64,000 bases of DNA from a virus (lineage: Duplodnaviria; Caudoviricetes). Location of the stretch: positions 5,299 through 69,298 of IMG/VR virus record IMGVR_UViG_3300037418_002651; one strand, 5' to 3'. Positions within the stretch are counted from its first letter, which is position 1. Each line of letters starts with the position of its first letter. The position numbers and the translations under genes were made by a program. A model generated the notes under the pieces. That model ran no database searches. It was not told the DNA's origin and saw nothing but the letters and a program-made list of their open reading frames with translations. Below are positions 22,816 to 58,139 of this stretch, piece after piece.

Positions 22816-22850
22816 CGGCCCCCTCCCAGAGCGCTGGTTGAGGGGGCCGA
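22816..22850. terminator. Hairpin between scaffold and decoration genes
   Basis: CTCGGCCCCCTC...GAGGGGGCCGAG. Confidence 0.5.
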
Positions 22851-22865
22851 GATCCAGGCGGGACT

Positions 22866-23804
22866 CTAGTCGAAGAGGACCTCCGCGTCCTCGTCCACCA
22901 CGCCGACGGCACCGGCCACCGAGGTGATCGGAGCGGGCTGGGTCACGAGGGACGGCATGGTCCGCTGGACGCCCTGGGTGTTCGCCGCCGCACGCGGAAC
23001 GAGACCGGCCGGACGCTCCTTCTTGGCCGCCGCCTTGGTCACCTGGGACAGGGTGGCGATCTCGCGGCGGATCATCGCGTCGGACAGGGACCGGTCGGCC
23101 TCGATACCGGCCGCCACCGCGAGGTCGTCGCCCCGGGCGATTCCGGCCGCGATCTGGAGCCGGGCCAGGCGGATGGAGGCCATGGTGCGGTGCGAGGAGA
23201 TCTGGCTCATCTCACCGTCGCGGGGCGGCGTGGTGCCCTGCTGCTGCGAGGGGCCGAAGGCCGGGTTCAGCGGGTAGGCCGTCTCCGGGTTCATCGGGTC
23301 GCCCACGCGGACGTCGGTCTCGATGCGGGTCGTCTCCGGCGGGGTGTGGGTCTCGGTACCGGCGACCGGCGCGGAGACGTCCACGAGGTTGTTGTACGGC
23401 TCGGTGGGCAGCGTGACACCCGGGTCCATCGGGGTGGCCGTGGTCTCGGCCGCCACACCCTGGTTGGCGCCCGGGGTCTGGCCGATCTGGTTCGGGTTGT
23501 CGTACGCCTCCGGGGTGGCCGCCTCTTCGGTGGACTCCGTGGCGGGCTGGGAGGCCGGGTTCGGGACCGGCTGGGCCGGGTTGTCCGCGTCGGCCTTCTT
23601 GCGCATCTGGTCGGCCTTCACGCGGATCGCGTTCAGCTCCTCCGAGACACCGGCCAGGCGGGCCACGTAGGCGAGCTGAAGCTGAAGGACGGCGTTGTCG
23701 TGCTCCAGCTTCTCGTTGCGGGCCGCGAGCTTGTTCAGGACGCTCTGCTGAGACGCCATGGCGGCCATGAGCGGTCGGTTACCCGACTGGGTCTTTGCAC
23801 CCAT
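22866..23804 (-). CDS. Scaffolding protein (putative)
   Basis: N-terminal coiled coil, Pro/Thr-rich middle, between protease and capsid genes. Confidence 0.55.
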   Translation of the reverse strand: MGAKTQSGNRPLMAAMASQQSVLNKLAARNEKLEHDNAVLQLQLAYVARLAGVSEELNAIRVKADQMRKKADADNPAQPVPNPASQPATESTEEAATPEAYDNPNQIGQTPGANQGVAAETTATPMDPGVTLPTEPYNNLVDVSAPVAGTETHTPPETTRIETDVRVGDPMNPETAYPLNPAFGPSQQQGTTPPRDGEMSQISSHRTMASIRLARLQIAAGIARGDDLAVAAGIEADRSLSDAMIRREIATLSQVTKAAAKKERPAGLVPRAAANTQGVQRTMPSLVTQPAPITSVAGAVGVVDEDAEVLFD

Positions 23805-55317: not shown

Positions 55318-55467
55318 GGCGACCTCCTGACGTAGTGAAGGTCGTTACGACGCTACGCGAAGGATTCTTGGAGGACAAGGGTGGGGCATATGCCAGATGT
55401 CCTCGCCACCCGACGATTCCTCAAACCGGGTTGCTCCAACCATGATTGGTAGTGCATAGTGGTGACC

Positions 55468-55541
55468 GCGCCGGTGCGCTGGTGGGGGTTCCTTCGATTC
55501 TGGTTCGACAAAGACACCTCCGTCGACCTTGTTCTCGGCGC
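55468..55541 (+). ncRNA. Y RNA-like element 1 (short, no tRNA arms)
   Basis: GCGCCGG-TGCGC...GGTTCCTT / CCTTGTTCTCGGCGC closing stem; upstream promoter TTGCTC-N18-CATAGT. Confidence 0.55.
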
Positions 55542-55573
55542 CTTGACAACTGAATCGGATTCACTGTGGTGAC

Positions 55574-55714
55574 GGGTGGCCGGTGCGCAGGCATGGGTTA
55601 CTTCACCTGCTAAGTGAGAGTTGCGGGTTCGAGTCCCGTCCGGGGGTCAAGGCCTCCGGTAGCTTAATGGGCAAAGCGCTAACGTTCCCCGCGCCGCCTT
55701 GTTCTCGGACACCC
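55574..55714 (+). ncRNA. Y RNA-like element 2 (YrlA-like, T arm-acceptor hairpin-D arm)
   Basis: GCGGG-TTCGAGT-CCCGT, CCGGGGG/CCTCCGG, TAGCTTAATGGGCAAAGC, 3' CCTTGTTCTCGGACACCC. Confidence 0.7.
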
Positions 55715-55750
55715 TTCATCCCAGTGAATCTCCATCATCGCGATGGTGGT

Positions 55751-55866
55751 GAGTATCCGGTGCGCAGTGCCGGGATACTTCAACCTGAAAAGTTGGCAAT
55801 CTGGGTTCGACTCCCAGCTAGGGCGTGGGCCTAGCTTTTCCTGGGACGCCTTGTCCTCGGATGCTC
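55751..55866 (+). ncRNA. Y RNA-like element 3 (T arm plus acceptor hairpin, no D arm)
   Basis: GAGTATCCG/CGGATGCTC stem, CTGGG-TTCGACT-CCCAG, CTAGG/CCTAG. Confidence 0.65.
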
Positions 55867-55892
55867 TCCAGCGTCGCGATGACGCACACGCG

Positions 55893-55974
55893 CCTTCCCG
55901 GTGCGTAGTCCAGGGTTACTTCCACACGATTCAAACCGTGTCCCAAAGACCTTGGACGCTTTGATCTCGGGAGG
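55893..55974 (+). ncRNA. Y RNA-like element 4 (YrlB-like)
   Basis: CCTTCCCGG-TGCGTAG...GGTTACTT / CTTTGATCTCGGGAGG; no tRNA arms. Confidence 0.55.
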
Positions 55975-55986
55975 GTCTCGACATTC

Positions 55987-56130
55987 ACGGTCGATGCGTA
56001 GGCAGTGGATACTTCACCGGAACCGCCGGTCACAGGTTCAAATCCTGTCCGCCCACCCATTCATGTGGGCGGTAGCTCAGTCTGGCAGAGCAGCGGTATT
56101 AGTCCCACCGCCGTCCTTGTTCTCGACCGT
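55987..56130 (+). ncRNA. Y RNA-like element 5 (YrlA-like)
   Basis: ACGGTCGA/TCGACCGT stem, ACAGG-TTCAAAT-CCTGT, CCGCCCAC/GTGGGCGG, TAGCTCAGTCTGGCAGAGC. Confidence 0.75.
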
Positions 56131-56177
56131 GGTTTGAGCCCCTCCTGGTCCATCACCCGCCAGAGAGGGGCTCATTC

Positions 56178-57839
56178 ATGTCCAAGTTCAACTCCAAGGG
56201 CGCTCAGACCGCCCGCAAGTCGGGGCCGGTCAGCCCGATGACCACGACCGGCACCACCAAGACGTTCGAGGGCGGCGCGGGCTTCTCGCGTGACGCCAAG
56301 TCCGAGCTGTACCTCACCGCCGTGACCAACATGGTCGGCGAGGACACGTTCTACGAGTCGGCCCAGAAGCGGGACGACCGCTTCGTGCGCCTGATCCACC
56401 AGGTCGCCGTCTCGGACCCGGAGTGGCTCTACCGGTTCCTCGGGTGGCTGCGCAACAAGGCCAACATGCGCTCGGCGTCCGTCGTCGTCGCGGCCGAGGC
56501 CATCAAGGCCCGCCTGGACGCCAGGATCACCGAGGGCTTCCGGGTTGCCCTGCCGTGGCAGGGTGATCACGCGATCCTGTTCAACACCAAGGACTTCATC
56601 CCGCAGGGTATGGCCCGTGCGGACGAGCCGGGCGAGTTCCTCGCCTACTGGACCTCGAAGTACGGCAAGAACCTCCCGCAGCCGGTCAAGCGCGGTCTGG
56701 CCCTCGCGGCCAACGACCTGTACGACGAGTACTCGTACTCGAAGTACGGCAAGACCGGTGAGTGGCAGATGGCCGACGTCATCGAGCTGGTCCACGCGGC
56801 CCCGAAGGACGACGCCCAGGGCGCGCTGTACAAGTACGCCATCGACATGCGGCACGGCCGCGAGGAGCTGGTCCCGGCGGCCCTGCCGATGCTCCAGCAC
56901 CGCGAAGCCATCATGGCGATCCCGCAGGAGGAGCGGCGCACGTTCCTCCTGACCAGTTCGGCCAAGGAGGAGCTGAAGCGGGCCGGTGTCACCTGGGAGG
57001 CCCTGTCGGGGTGGCTCGGTGACGCGCTGGACGCCTCGTTCTGGGAGTCGATCATCCCGACCATGGGCTACATGGCCCTGTTGCGGAACCTGCGCAACTT
57101 CGAGAAGGCCGGGATCTCCCGTGCGTCCCGTGCGGCCGTCTGCACGCGCCTGGCGGCCCCGGGAGAGGTCCAGCAGTCCCGTCAGTTCCCCTTCCGCTTC
57201 CTGAGCGCCTACAGGGCCGTGGAGAGCGACTGGTGGAGCCTGGCCCTGTCGGACGCCCTGGACCACTCGATCGGCAACCTGCCGGTCTTCCCGGGCCGCA
57301 CGCTGGTCCTGGTCGACACGTCGGCTTCGATGATGGACCCGATCTCGGCGAAGTCCTCGGTGTCCCACGCGGACATCGGAGCCCTGTTCGGTGTCGCGCT
57401 CGCGCGGGCCGGTCAGGACGTGGACCTCCACGGCTTCGCGGGCGGGAGCACCTGGGGCCGCAGCACCTCTGGCCGGGTCAGCTTCAAGCACGACCTGCCC
57501 AAGGGCGGTTCGGTGCTGAAGGGCATCCAGTCCTTCACGAAGCGGATCGGCGAGGTCGGCCACGGCACGCAGATGGTGGAGGCCATCAAGGAGACGTACG
57601 ACGGCCACGACCGGGTCATCCTGGTCACCGACATGCAGGCCTTCGCGGCCTACGGCGGTGGGCGGGTCACCTCGGCGGTCCCGGCCGACGTGCGGATGTA
57701 CGGCATCAACCCGAGCGGCTACTCCAGCACCGCGCTGGACCTCTCGCAGCGCAACCGCTACGAGATCGGCGGCTTCTCCGACCAGGTCTTCAGGATGATC
57801 TCGCTCCTGGAGGCCGGGGACGCCAACTGGCCGTTCTGA
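56178..57839 (+). CDS. rsr: Ro60/Rsr-like TROVE plus vWA RNA-binding protein
   Basis: EGGAGF.RD.KSEL, DPEW...WLR..ANMR, TWE.LS, MGYMALLRNLRN, SRQFPFRFLSAY, TLVLVDTSASM (MIDAS), RVILVTDMQ. Confidence 0.85.
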   Translation: MSKFNSKGAQTARKSGPVSPMTTTGTTKTFEGGAGFSRDAKSELYLTAVTNMVGEDTFYESAQKRDDRFVRLIHQVAVSDPEWLYRFLGWLRNKANMRSASVVVAAEAIKARLDARITEGFRVALPWQGDHAILFNTKDFIPQGMARADEPGEFLAYWTSKYGKNLPQPVKRGLALAANDLYDEYSYSKYGKTGEWQMADVIELVHAAPKDDAQGALYKYAIDMRHGREELVPAALPMLQHREAIMAIPQEERRTFLLTSSAKEELKRAGVTWEALSGWLGDALDASFWESIIPTMGYMALLRNLRNFEKAGISRASRAAVCTRLAAPGEVQQSRQFPFRFLSAYRAVESDWWSLALSDALDHSIGNLPVFPGRTLVLVDTSASMMDPISAKSSVSHADIGALFGVALARAGQDVDLHGFAGGSTWGRSTSGRVSFKHDLPKGGSVLKGIQSFTKRIGEVGHGTQMVEAIKETYDGHDRVILVTDMQAFAAYGGGRVTSAVPADVRMYGINPSGYSSTALDLSQRNRYEIGGFSDQVFRMISLLEAGDANWPF

Positions 57840-58024
57840 TGTGCCTGCTCTGTGTGGCCGATGAGGTCCCGCAGCCCCTGCAACACTGCGGGGTCTGCGG
57901 GTGCCCCATCGTGATCTACGACGGCGCCTTCTTCTGCACGCCGGACGAGTGCTGGTGCGAGAAGCAGCCCAACATGGGCGAGTGGCACGCCCTTTCGGAG
58001 GAGTACGATCCTCCCCAGACATAG
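57839..58024 (+). CDS. Small Cys-rich protein coupled to the Ro gene
   Basis: TGATG overlap; MCLLC...CGVCGC...C...CWC. Confidence 0.5.
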   Translation: MCLLCVADEVPQPLQHCGVCGCPIVIYDGAFFCTPDECWCEKQPNMGEWHALSEEYDPPQT

Positions 58025-58094: not shown

Positions 58095-58128
58095 GAAGAC
58101 CCCCTCGCTGGACTGGAGGGGGTCTTCT
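58095..58128. terminator. Bidirectional terminator at convergent genes
   Basis: GAAGACCCCCTC...GAGGGGGTCTTC. Confidence 0.65.
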
Positions 58129-58139
58129 TGTGTCTGGGC

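What the first reader, a model, noticed from the sequence alone, without database searches (positions are those of the whole stretch)
55431..57839. Phage Ro60/TROVE gene preceded by five tandem Y-RNA-like elements, some being permuted tRNA mimics
Seen: five elements share a 5' (C/T)CG(G/A)TGCG(C/T)(A/T)G...GG(A/T)T(A/C)CTT motif and a 3' C(C/T)TTG(T/A)(T/C)CTCG motif inside a closing stem. Two carry T arm, closed acceptor hairpin and D arm in that permuted order; one lacks the D arm; two lack tRNA arms. Known: bacterial Rsr binds Y RNAs (YrlA tRNA-like, YrlB not), and YrlA occurs in some phages. Five diverged copies in a phage is unusual. Inference: tRNA-mimic decoys for host anticodon nucleases, or retargeting of host RNA decay such as PNPase.
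Basis: partly seen in the sequence, partly recalled or inferred. Interest (0 to 1): 0.8.

Follow-up and report, generated by a model that had tools for sequence, protein, structure and literature searches.

The report
Phage Ro60 gene with five Y RNAs
An uncultured actinobacterial phage carries a gene for the ring-shaped RNA-binding protein Ro60, preceded by five small RNA genes that share one protein-binding "handle". Two of them mimic tRNA. This is a real but expected example of the known Ro60/Y-RNA partnership, which turns out to be arranged in such rows in most related bacteria and phages.

Summary
Five co-oriented elements fill the 860-bp gap upstream of a TROVE+vWA (Ro60) gene on an IMG/VR phage contig. 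A covariance model of the shared handle finds exactly these five in 64 kb.

The same model finds 79 elements beside Ro60 in 27 of 30 related viral loci searched, and 183 beside rsr in 80 actinobacterial genome loci. All are on the gene's strand. Stem covariation in the viral set is strong.

- E2 and E5 are YrlA-type tRNA mimics (T arm, closed acceptor hairpin, D arm, covarying 15:48 pair).
- E3 lacks the D arm.
- E1 and E4 are handle plus one hairpin.

The element types match published M. smegmatis YrlA and YrlB.

Rows of 2-4 are the norm in Actinomycetota and 1-5 in related phages, so five is the top of a common range, not an oddity. Rfam's YrlA model misses all of them at its threshold.

Function is inferred, not shown: adaptors that couple phage Ro60 to host RNA-decay or tRNA-handling enzymes.

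This scan has noted Ro60-like genes with RNA rows on other phage DNA before.

Verdict: new member of a known kind, of moderate interest.

The parts
55466..55543 (+). E1: short Y RNA. Handle stem I is 55468-55474 with 55534-55541. Stem II is 55481-55488 with 55517-55524. One hairpin at 55494-55508 has a 7-nt loop.
   Evidence: R1 64.8 bits, E = 3e-12. Motifs; coordinates.
55574..55714 (+). E2: YrlA-type tRNA-mimic Y RNA. Handle stems are 55574-55583/55704-55714 and 55590-55597/55688-55695. Anticodon-arm-like hairpin 55602-55618 (5 bp, loop CUGCUAA). T arm 55623-55639. Closed acceptor hairpin 55640-55659. D arm 55662-55677.
   Evidence: R1 47.9 bits, E = 1.5e-8, not in the seed. Rfam YrlA 32.9 bits over 55620-55677. 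ARAGORN miscalls 55577-55648 as tRNA-Ser(gct). A15:U48 pair.
55751..55866 (+). E3: partial tRNA mimic. Handle, then anticodon-arm-like hairpin 55780-55796 (loop CUGAAAA), T arm 55801-55817 and a 5-bp hairpin 55818-55834. No D arm.
   Evidence: R1 42.0 bits, E = 3e-7, not in the seed. Rfam tRNA 19.9 bits, below its cut-off of 29. Coordinates.
55892..55976 (+). E4: short Y RNA. Handle stems are 55893-55901/55966-55975 and 55908-55915/55950-55957. One hairpin at 55924-55941.
   Evidence: R1 62.0 bits. MFE z = -4.95.
55986..56131 (+). E5: YrlA-type tRNA-mimic Y RNA, last before the gene. Handle stems are 55986-55994/56123-56131 and 56001-56008/56105-56112. A 4-bp anticodon-stem-like helix CCGC/GCGG lies within 56023-56031 and 56092-56096. 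T arm 56032-56048. Acceptor hairpin 56049-56072, whose loop starts with C-CCA right after the 7-nt 3' strand. D arm 56075-56091.
   Evidence: Rfam YrlA 39.5 bits, E = 5e-7, full model length. R1 41.7 bits, not in the seed. G15:C48 pair and CCA. MFE z = -4.07.
56178..57839 (+). Ro60 (Rsr) orthologue, 553 aa. TROVE ring domain plus a C-terminal vWA region with MIDAS-type D380-T-S-A-S384 motif.
   Evidence: Pfam TROVE 63 bits. phrog_850 covers residues 8-548. PDB 9KOP/9L5Y E = 2e-24. Translation.
58096..58133 (+). GC-rich hairpin followed by TTGTG. Probable end of the Y RNA-Ro60 transcription unit (inferred).
   Evidence: Read from the sequence. The tool's terminator scan did not list it.

Best explanation
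The locus is a phage copy of the actinobacterial rsr/Y-RNA module. It holds five separate small RNA genes, then the Ro60 gene, all on one strand.

The handle. Each RNA carries the same handle. This is a closing stem, an internal loop with conserved 5' CCGGUGCGYAG and 3' CYUUGWUCUCGG strands (close to the metazoan Y RNA stem), and a second stem ending in YUAC-UUC. By analogy with solved and probed Ro60-Y RNA complexes, the handle docks on the outer face of the phage Ro60 ring.

The cargo. The part enclosed by the handle differs from RNA to RNA. E2 and E5 carry a full tRNA-like domain, E3 a T-arm half, and E1 and E4 a single hairpin.

Inferred function. Different Y RNAs would couple or gate the one Ro60 ring to different host factors. 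The most likely partners are PNPase or other 3'-5' exonucleases (a RYPER-type machine) and tRNA-recognising enzymes. E5 may be cut in its acceptor loop by RNase P to leave an encoded CCA end, as M. smegmatis YrlA is.

Shown versus inferred. Shown here: the elements, their conserved covarying structure, their strict linkage and co-orientation with Ro60, and their kinship with YrlA/YrlB. Inferred: transcription, processing, binding and every downstream effect.
For: Distribution:
- R1 finds exactly the five elements in the window and no others on the 69-kb contig.
- It finds 79 elements in 27 of 30 related viral loci searched and 183 in 80 actinobacterial loci, all on the Ro60 strand. The viral ones mostly lie within about 1.4 kb upstream of the gene.

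Structure:
- Handle pairs: 87% of cells are paired, against 35-48% when the partner is slid. The covariation score is 0.566 against about 0.09-0.12. 15 of 18 pairs show double changes, and 0 of 500 shuffles reach the score.
- G-U pairs fit the + strand only.
- tRNA-like tertiary logic: position 15 of the D loop covaries with the base before the T stem (10 G:C, 7 A:U of 21), as Chen 2014 reported for YrlA.

Kinship with known RNAs:
- Rfam YrlA hits E5 and E2.
- The probe sequences published for M. smegmatis YrlA and YrlB read as the same element types.

Protein:
- Ro60 identity rests.
- Phage precedent: phiLo Ro60 binds two upstream Yrl RNAs and host PNPase.
Against: - There are no expression, processing or binding data.
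- No sigma-70-type promoter was found in the region.
- The Rfam YrlA gathering score (69 bits) is not reached by any element here or in 19 related loci.
- The 5' motif is GNCGGUG or GUCGAUG, not the published GNCGAAN0-1G.
- Folding energies of E1-E3 are not better than shuffles.
- No RtcB and no genuine tRNA gene lies on the contig. It is only about 45% complete, so absence means little.
- Which host factor each cargo engages is a guess.
Confidence: 0.8

Rival explanations
1. Anti-defence decoys. The tRNA-like cargos, including hairpins with a 5-bp stem and a 7-nt C-U-NNN-A-A loop placed 4-5 nt before the T arm, imitate tRNA anticodon arms. They would soak up or misdirect host tRNA-cleaving defence nucleases. 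Ro60 would stabilise them or feed the cut products to decay or repair.
For: - The 7-nt loop is the commonest size among hairpins after YUAC-UUC (26 of 55 in viral loci). Loop position 2 is U in 23 of 26 and positions 6-7 are mostly A.
- The triplets vary while the flanks are kept.
- ARAGORN reads these as anticodon arms in the window and in L002, L007, L019 and L030.
- In several phages the locus sits inside tRNA gene clusters.
- Encoded N73-CCA occurs in 5 of 34 viral elements against 3 of 74 bacterial ones.
Against: - The same hairpin type occurs in chromosomal rsr loci of Actinomycetota (20 of 150 elements) and in M. smegmatis YrlA (probe sequence). It is therefore not a phage invention.
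- Chen 2014 reads this hairpin as a variable arm.
- The elements are related by descent, so the counts are not independent.
- No defence nuclease is linked.
Confidence: 0.1
2. Cis-acting leader. The five handles are Ro60-binding sites within one long 5' untranslated region. They would let Ro60 autoregulate its own mRNA, or act as attenuators, rather than being stable separate RNAs.
For: - The elements are tightly packed (3-30 nt apart) on the gene's strand.
- The last one ends 46 nt before the ATG.
- No internal promoters or terminators were found.
Against: - In L022-L024 the elements lie downstream of Ro60.
- M. smegmatis, Salmonella, Deinococcus and phiLo homologues are discrete RNAs or bind as such.
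- The elaborate conserved tRNA-like cargo, with tertiary covariation, is not needed for a binding site.
Confidence: 0.07
3. Decayed tRNA genes. The region is the remnant of a phage tRNA cluster, and the shared motifs are leftovers without present function.
For: - T, D and acceptor-like arms are present.
- Relatives carry tRNA clusters next to Ro60.
Against: - The handle is not part of any tRNA.
- It is conserved with compensatory changes across more than 260 elements, always beside Ro60.
- The acceptor stems are closed hairpins.
- The Rfam tRNA model scores 19.9 bits at best, below its cut-off.
Confidence: 0.03

Closest known systems
Mycobacterium smegmatis Rsr with YrlA and YrlB (Chen et al. 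2014, RNA 20:1715, PMC4201824)
   Same: - Actinobacterial Ro60 with Y RNAs encoded just upstream on the same strand.
- YrlA has a V hairpin, T arm, 7-bp closed acceptor stem and D arm. YrlB has a T arm straight after ACUUC.
- The published probe sequences read UUACCACUUCUAAUGG... and ...GCGACUUCAAGGUUCGACU, the same element types found here and in the actinobacterial loci.
- RNase P cutting in the acceptor loop gives a precedent for E5.
   Different: - The gene is phage-borne.
- There are five RNAs instead of the two characterised.
- Both strands of the handle are conserved, whereas only the 5' strand was recognised in M. smegmatis.
- In E5 the CCA is encoded rather than added.
- Two members carry no tRNA arm at all.
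Thermus phage phiLo Ro60 with Yrl1 and Yrl2 (NAR 2025, PMC12135203; PDB 9KOP, 9L5Y)
   Same: - Phage Ro60 (sequence match E = 2e-24) with Y-RNA-like genes directly upstream.
- Forms RYPER-like complexes with host PNPase in vitro.
   Different: - Two RNAs, not five.
- That paper describes stem-bulge-stem RNAs with a CGAA motif. My term search found 'tRNA-like' and 'YrlA' nowhere in it.
- Different host phylum.
YrlA family, Rfam RF02553 (254 bacteria and 22 phages in Chen 2014)
   Same: - Within 4 kb of Ro60, on the same strand.
- Permuted order T arm, acceptor hairpin, D arm.
- YUAY before the V hairpin.
- Levitt-pair covariation.
   Different: - Scores of 39.5 and 32.9 bits are below the gathering score of 69.
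- No element in 19 related loci reaches it.
- The 5' motif is GNCGGUG or GUCGAUG instead of GNCGAAN0-1G.
Deinococcus radiodurans Rsr with Yrn1/Yrn2 and the RYPER machine (Chen 2000, 2013, as cited in PMC4201824)
   Same: - Several small RNAs (four) are encoded upstream of rsr.
- Both strands of the Ro-binding helix are kept.
- The Y RNA tethers Ro60 to PNPase.
   Different: - The tRNA-like part has another orientation and is held to have evolved separately.
- Chromosomal and stress-induced.

Membership tests
Ro60 / Rsr (TROVE + vWA ring protein) | TROVE (HEAT-repeat ring) domain above the curated cut-off | tested here: met
   Pfam PF05731, 63.1 bits against a cut-off of 23. phrog_850 spans residues 8-548.
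Ro60 / Rsr (TROVE + vWA ring protein) | C-terminal vWA domain with MIDAS motif (DxSxS...T...D) | tested here: met
   D380-T-S-A-S384, then GHGT and VTDMQ, read from the translation. There is no separate Pfam vWA hit.
Ro60 / Rsr (TROVE + vWA ring protein) | Sequence homology to a solved Ro60 | tested here: met
   9KOP/9L5Y (phage phiLo Ro60), E = 2.2e-24.
Ro60 / Rsr (TROVE + vWA ring protein) | Binds Y RNA on its outer surface | not testable with these tools
   Needs pull-down or EMSA.
YrlA (Rfam RF02553; Chen 2014) | Encoded within 4 kb of the Ro60 gene on the same strand | tested here: met
   All five lie 46-712 nt upstream, on the + strand.
YrlA (Rfam RF02553; Chen 2014) | tRNA-like domain in the order T arm, closed acceptor stem-loop, D arm | tested here: met
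   Met by E2 and E5. Not met by E1, E3 and E4, which are therefore not YrlA proper.
YrlA (Rfam RF02553; Chen 2014) | Levitt-type 15:48 pair with compensatory G:C / A:U changes | tested here: met
   E5 has G:C and E2 has A:U. Across 21 elements: 10 G:C, 7 A:U, 4 other.
YrlA (Rfam RF02553; Chen 2014) | 5' motif GNCGAAN0-1G | tested here: not met
   E5 reads GUCGAUG. E1-E4 read (G/C)CCGGUG. The spacing to YUAY matches, so this is a variant of the motif.
YrlA (Rfam RF02553; Chen 2014) | Conserved YUAY at the start of the V hairpin | tested here: met
   UUAC (E2, E4), AUAC (E3, E5), UUCC (E1). UUAC or AUAC is near-invariant in the family.
YrlA (Rfam RF02553; Chen 2014) | Rfam gathering score (69 bits) | tested here: not met
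   39.5 bits (E5) and 32.9 bits (E2).
Short Y RNAs without a full tRNA domain (YrlB class) | Ro-binding handle shared with the neighbouring YrlA, with no T/acceptor/D set | tested here: met
   E1, E4 and (with a T arm only) E3 score 42-65 bits with the handle model.
Genuine tRNA | Open acceptor stem and full cloverleaf above the Rfam tRNA cut-off (29 bits) | tested here: not met
   Best 19.9 bits, partial. No tRNA on the contig. The ARAGORN call at 55577-55648 uses the handle as its 'acceptor'.

The most novel reading that the evidence does not exclude
The row is a cargo library on one scaffold. A single phage Ro60 ring would be loaded in turn with five RNAs that display tRNA parts, and the phage would use them against the host's tRNA-directed defences or tRNA-processing enzymes.

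The parts on display are whole tRNA bodies with anticodon-arm look-alikes, a T-arm half, and bare anticodon-like hairpins. E5 would be cut by RNase P to expose a genome-encoded CCA end.

This would make Ro60/Y RNA a counter-defence device rather than a housekeeping RNA-quality-control module.
Probability: 0.1. Interest if true: 0.75.

Novelty: new member of a known kind. Interest (0 to 1): 0.35.

Why it matters
Ro60 and Y RNAs are conserved from bacteria to humans, yet the job of Y RNAs is understood in only a few species.

This locus and its relatives show three things.
- In Actinomycetota and their phages, the partner RNAs usually come as rows of two to five with one constant handle and swappable cargo.
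- A handle-based model finds the short, non-tRNA-like members that homology searches with YrlB could not find in 2014.
- The Rfam YrlA model misses the whole group at its threshold.

There is also a practical point. tRNA finders call the front half of these RNAs as tRNA genes. At least two GenBank phage records carry such calls, which distorts tRNA counts used in phage-host codon analyses.

For phage biology, the locus adds an uncultured large actinophage to the short list in which hijacking of host RNA decay through Ro60 can be tested.

Tried and rejected
- Rfam at gathering thresholds: no hit in the window and no YrlA hit in 19 related loci. Only the E-value mode showed YrlA.
- MAFFT plus RNAalifold on short elements recovered stem I only. 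Stem II needed a hand-set structure and realignment by the model.
- Folding energy as evidence: not significant for E1-E3.
- I looked by eye for a pairing partner of the conserved 3' linker C-U-N-A-C-G-U-Y-A that follows the D arm in E2-type elements. Candidates were the YUAC motif, the first hairpin, and an anticodon-stem-like helix. The sequences showed no consistent covariation, so its role is unexplained.
- I tested whether the window's row is position-by-position orthologous to the bacterial order short-long-mid-long. Only the size pattern agrees. E3 differs in build from the bacterial mid-size (YrlB-like) elements. I do not claim synteny of types.
- The 61-aa Cys-rich ORF after Ro60 has no homologue in 118 loci, so I do not count it as part of the system.
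- RtcB and genuine tRNA genes on the contig: none.
- Ro60 tree: the window sits on a long branch with no well-supported clade. No donor can be named.
- The weak sixth model hit at 22838-22924(-) has E = 0.33 and lacks stem II. I rejected it as chance.
Full report
**Setting**

The window is part of an IMG/VR virus record of 69,298 bases. CheckV estimates it at about 45% complete. It carries a portal gene and tail genes. G+C is about 66%. The portal resembles those of large mycobacterial, Rhodococcus and Gordonia phages. No genuine tRNA gene and no RtcB lie on the contig.

**The gene**

ORF 56178-57839 (+) encodes 553 aa.
- It has a Pfam TROVE domain (3.6e-17).
- It matches PHROG 850 'RNA-binding protein' end to end (8e-46).
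- It matches the solved Ro60 of Thermus phage phiLo (9KOP/9L5Y, E = 2e-24).
- The translation shows a MIDAS-type D380-T-S-A-S384 motif, followed by GHGT and VTDMQ.

It is a bona fide Ro60/Rsr orthologue. The gene stands with the five elements as a + strand island between minus-strand genes. A GC-rich hairpin at 58096-58128, followed by TTGTG, probably ends the unit. I read this; the terminator scan did not list it.

**The observation**

The 5' motif occurs five times in 64 kb on both strands, all in the 860-bp gap upstream of the gene. Each copy has the middle and 3' motifs in register. Each element closes with a stem whose sequence differs from element to element but stays complementary.

- E2 and E5 have T arm, closed acceptor hairpin, UA, then D arm.
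- E3 has a T arm and a 5-bp hairpin only.
- E1 and E4 have one plain hairpin.

**Is it more than chance?**

I built a covariance model (R1) of the shared handle from 15 short elements. Only two of them, E1 and E4, came from this window.

In the window and its contig:
- R1 finds exactly the five elements, with E from 3e-12 to 3.5e-7.
- The three elements that were not in the seed are among them.
- The next hit has E = 0.33.
- No further copy lies on the contig.

In relatives:
- Of 30 viral loci that encode a Ro60 39-50% identical to this one, 27 hold the 74 matches found outside the window, which with the window's five makes 79. All are on the gene's strand. Almost all lie within 1.4 kb upstream; in L022-L024 they lie downstream.
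- On the alignment of these 79, 87% of cells in the 18 handle pairs are standard pairs, against 35-48% when the partner column is slid.
- The covariation score is 0.566 against 0.09-0.12. 15 pairs show changes on both sides. No shuffle of 500 reaches the observed score.
- That alignment was fitted to the model, which favours the structure. The size of the effect and the many pair types per position leave little doubt.

Folding energy alone does not settle it. Only E4 and E5 fold better than shuffles.

**What the elements are**

The handle consists of:
- stem I;
- an internal loop with 5' CCGG-UGCG-YAG and 3' CYUUG-WUCU-CGG;
- stem II;
- (A/U)UAC-UUC.

It resembles the metazoan Y RNA stem (5' GGUCCGAGUGCAG..., 3' ...CUUGAC...; that comparison is from my own knowledge). 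Its YUAC matches the YUAY that Chen et al. place at the start of the V hairpin of YrlA.

Rfam's YrlA model aligns over its whole length to E5 (39.5 bits, E = 5e-7) and over the T/acceptor/D core to E2 (32.9 bits). Both are below the gathering score of 69.

The D-loop base after A14 covaries with the base just before the T stem. Across 21 elements there are 10 G:C, 7 A:U and 4 others. This is the Levitt pair that Chen et al. used as evidence for a tRNA-like L shape.

The oligonucleotide probes published for M. smegmatis YrlA and YrlB, reverse-complemented, read:
- UUACCACUUCUAAUGGAAUGGUC. This is YUAY, then a hairpin with loop CUUCUAA.
- ...GGCGACUUCAAGGUUCGACU. Here the T arm follows ACUUC directly.

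Both builds occur in the loci studied here. The elements are therefore members of the actinobacterial YrlA/YrlB group.

**How common are rows?**

In 80 actinobacterial genome loci the Ro60 is 42-54% identical to the window's (Streptomyces, Catenulispora, Streptosporangiaceae, Micromonospora, Nocardia and others). There R1 finds 183 elements, again all on the gene's strand.
- Rows of three and four are frequent.
- In Streptosporangiales the order of sizes recurs: about 85, 148, 120 and 145 nt, then rsr.
- The largest bacterial row is four.

Per-locus counts in viral loci run from 1 to 5. The window, L006 and L031 have five by the model. A motif scan found one more candidate each in L006 and L007.

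Cultured phages have rows too:
- GiJojo has three and VanLee has four, counted by reading the sequence.
- The model alone gives two each in BRock, Quantum and Atuin; in Atuin one of the two lies downstream of the gene.

Five is thus at the top of a common range. D. radiodurans was already known to encode four small RNAs upstream of rsr. Chen 2014 reported 355 YrlA candidates in 276 genomes, so more than one per genome is in print.

On a FastTree of 113 Ro60 sequences, viral and bacterial rows interleave; at least nine changes of label are forced. Three IMG/VR rows are identical to rows from bacterial genomes. The window sits on a long branch near Catenulispora and Streptomycetaceae without a well-supported clade.

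*The hairpin after YUAC-UUC.* The conserved UUC forms the outer pairs of its stem.
- Its commonest loop size is 7 nt (26 of 55 hairpins in viral loci).
- The loop has C at position 1 (19 of 26), U at position 2 (23 of 26), a purine at position 6 (21 of 26) and A at position 7 (19 of 26). The middle triplet varies.
- In long elements it most often lies 4-5 nt before the T stem.
- In shape and place it looks like an anticodon arm. This is why ARAGORN calls tRNA-Ser(gct) in E2 and similar false tRNAs in L002, L007, L019 and L030.
- Chen et al. read the same hairpin as a variable arm.
- It also occurs in bacterial loci (20 of 150 elements) and in M. smegmatis YrlA. It is a family trait, not a phage novelty.

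*The acceptor loop of E5.* It begins with C-CCA directly after the 7-nt 3' strand.
- The same is seen in 5 of 34 viral and 3 of 74 bacterial elements with a 7-bp acceptor.
- M. smegmatis YrlA is cut by RNase P and receives CCA. E5 may be processed likewise.
- The counts are small and the elements are related, so this is a lead only.

**Mechanism**

The shared, covarying handle and its strict linkage to Ro60 make binding to the phage Ro60 the best-supported step. It is still an inference, drawn from Xenopus, Deinococcus, Salmonella, M. smegmatis and phiLo.

The variable cargo fits the adaptor model, in which the Y RNA tethers Ro60 to another factor. PNPase in RYPER is the known example, and phiLo forms RYPER-like complexes with host PNPase in vitro. 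Which factor each of the five cargos meets is unknown.

The rivals:
- *Decoy reading.* It is weakened because bacteria encode the same cargos themselves.
- *Cis-leader reading.* It is weakened by loci where the RNAs lie downstream of the gene, and by the discrete RNAs known from homologues.
- *Decayed-tRNA reading.* It is excluded by the covariation in the handle.

**Verdict**

This is a real, well-supported Ro60/Y RNA locus in an uncultured actinophage. It is a new member of a known kind.

Its value lies in three points: rows with one handle and modular cargo are the rule in this clade, Rfam misses them, and tRNA finders mis-call them. Earlier notes of this scan describe rows of handle-sharing RNAs beside Ro60-like genes in other phages. 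Those concern more divergent proteins, and I did not test them.

Noticed in passing
L034:2269-2343 (Streptomyces phage GiJojo, PP725410.1) and L037:2204-2275 (Gordonia phage VanLee, NC_073474.1): The GenBank features 'tRNA-Arg(cct)' (GiJojo gene 29) and 'tRNA-Arg(tct)' (VanLee gene 125, its only tRNA within the 6.6-kb stretch examined) are the front half of YrlA-type Y RNAs. That half is handle 5' strand, anticodon-like hairpin and T arm. Each continues into an acceptor hairpin, D arm and handle 3' strand before the Ro gene.
   Followed up: partly
window 55577-55648: ARAGORN calls a tRNA-Ser(gct) here. It is part of E2, with the handle taken as the acceptor stem. The Rfam tRNA model finds no tRNA on the whole contig.
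   Followed up: yes
window 55459-55465, 55566-55572, 55746-55752: GTGGTGA recurs just 5' of stem I of E1, E2 and E3, but not of E4 or E5. It could be a -10-like box or a processing signal. No sigma-70-type promoter was found by the scan.
   Followed up: no
window 57839-58024 (+): A 61-aa Cys-rich ORF overlaps the Ro60 stop codon (TGATG). It has no Pfam or NCBIfam hit and no homologue in any of 118 related loci. It may not be a gene.
   Followed up: yes
E2-type elements, e.g. window 55678-55687; L006:2336-2486, L007:2632-2781, L008:2589-2734: A conserved single-stranded stretch R-C-Y-U-A-(A)-C-G-U-Y-A lies between the D arm and the 3' strand of stem II. It is seen in elements that carry the anticodon-like hairpin. 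I found no pairing partner.
   Followed up: partly
L002, L003, L025 versus L044, L069, L083: Three IMG/VR 'viral' loci have Ro60 sequences identical to those of loci in Nonomuraea and Streptomyces genome assemblies; for L002/L044 and L003/L069 the Y-RNA hits also have the same coordinates and bit scores. They are prophage calls or chromosomal rsr loci classed as viral, so the 'viral' counts are slightly inflated.
   Followed up: partly
L010:32-2484 and L023:5363-7445: In these viral contigs the Ro60/Y-RNA locus adjoins co-oriented clusters of about 22 and 10 tRNA genes. GiJojo, BRock and Atuin show the same. The window's contig has none.
   Followed up: no
window 22838-22924 (-): A weak handle-model hit (14.6 bits, E = 0.33) with stem I and the 3' motif but no stem II. 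Probably chance.
   Followed up: no
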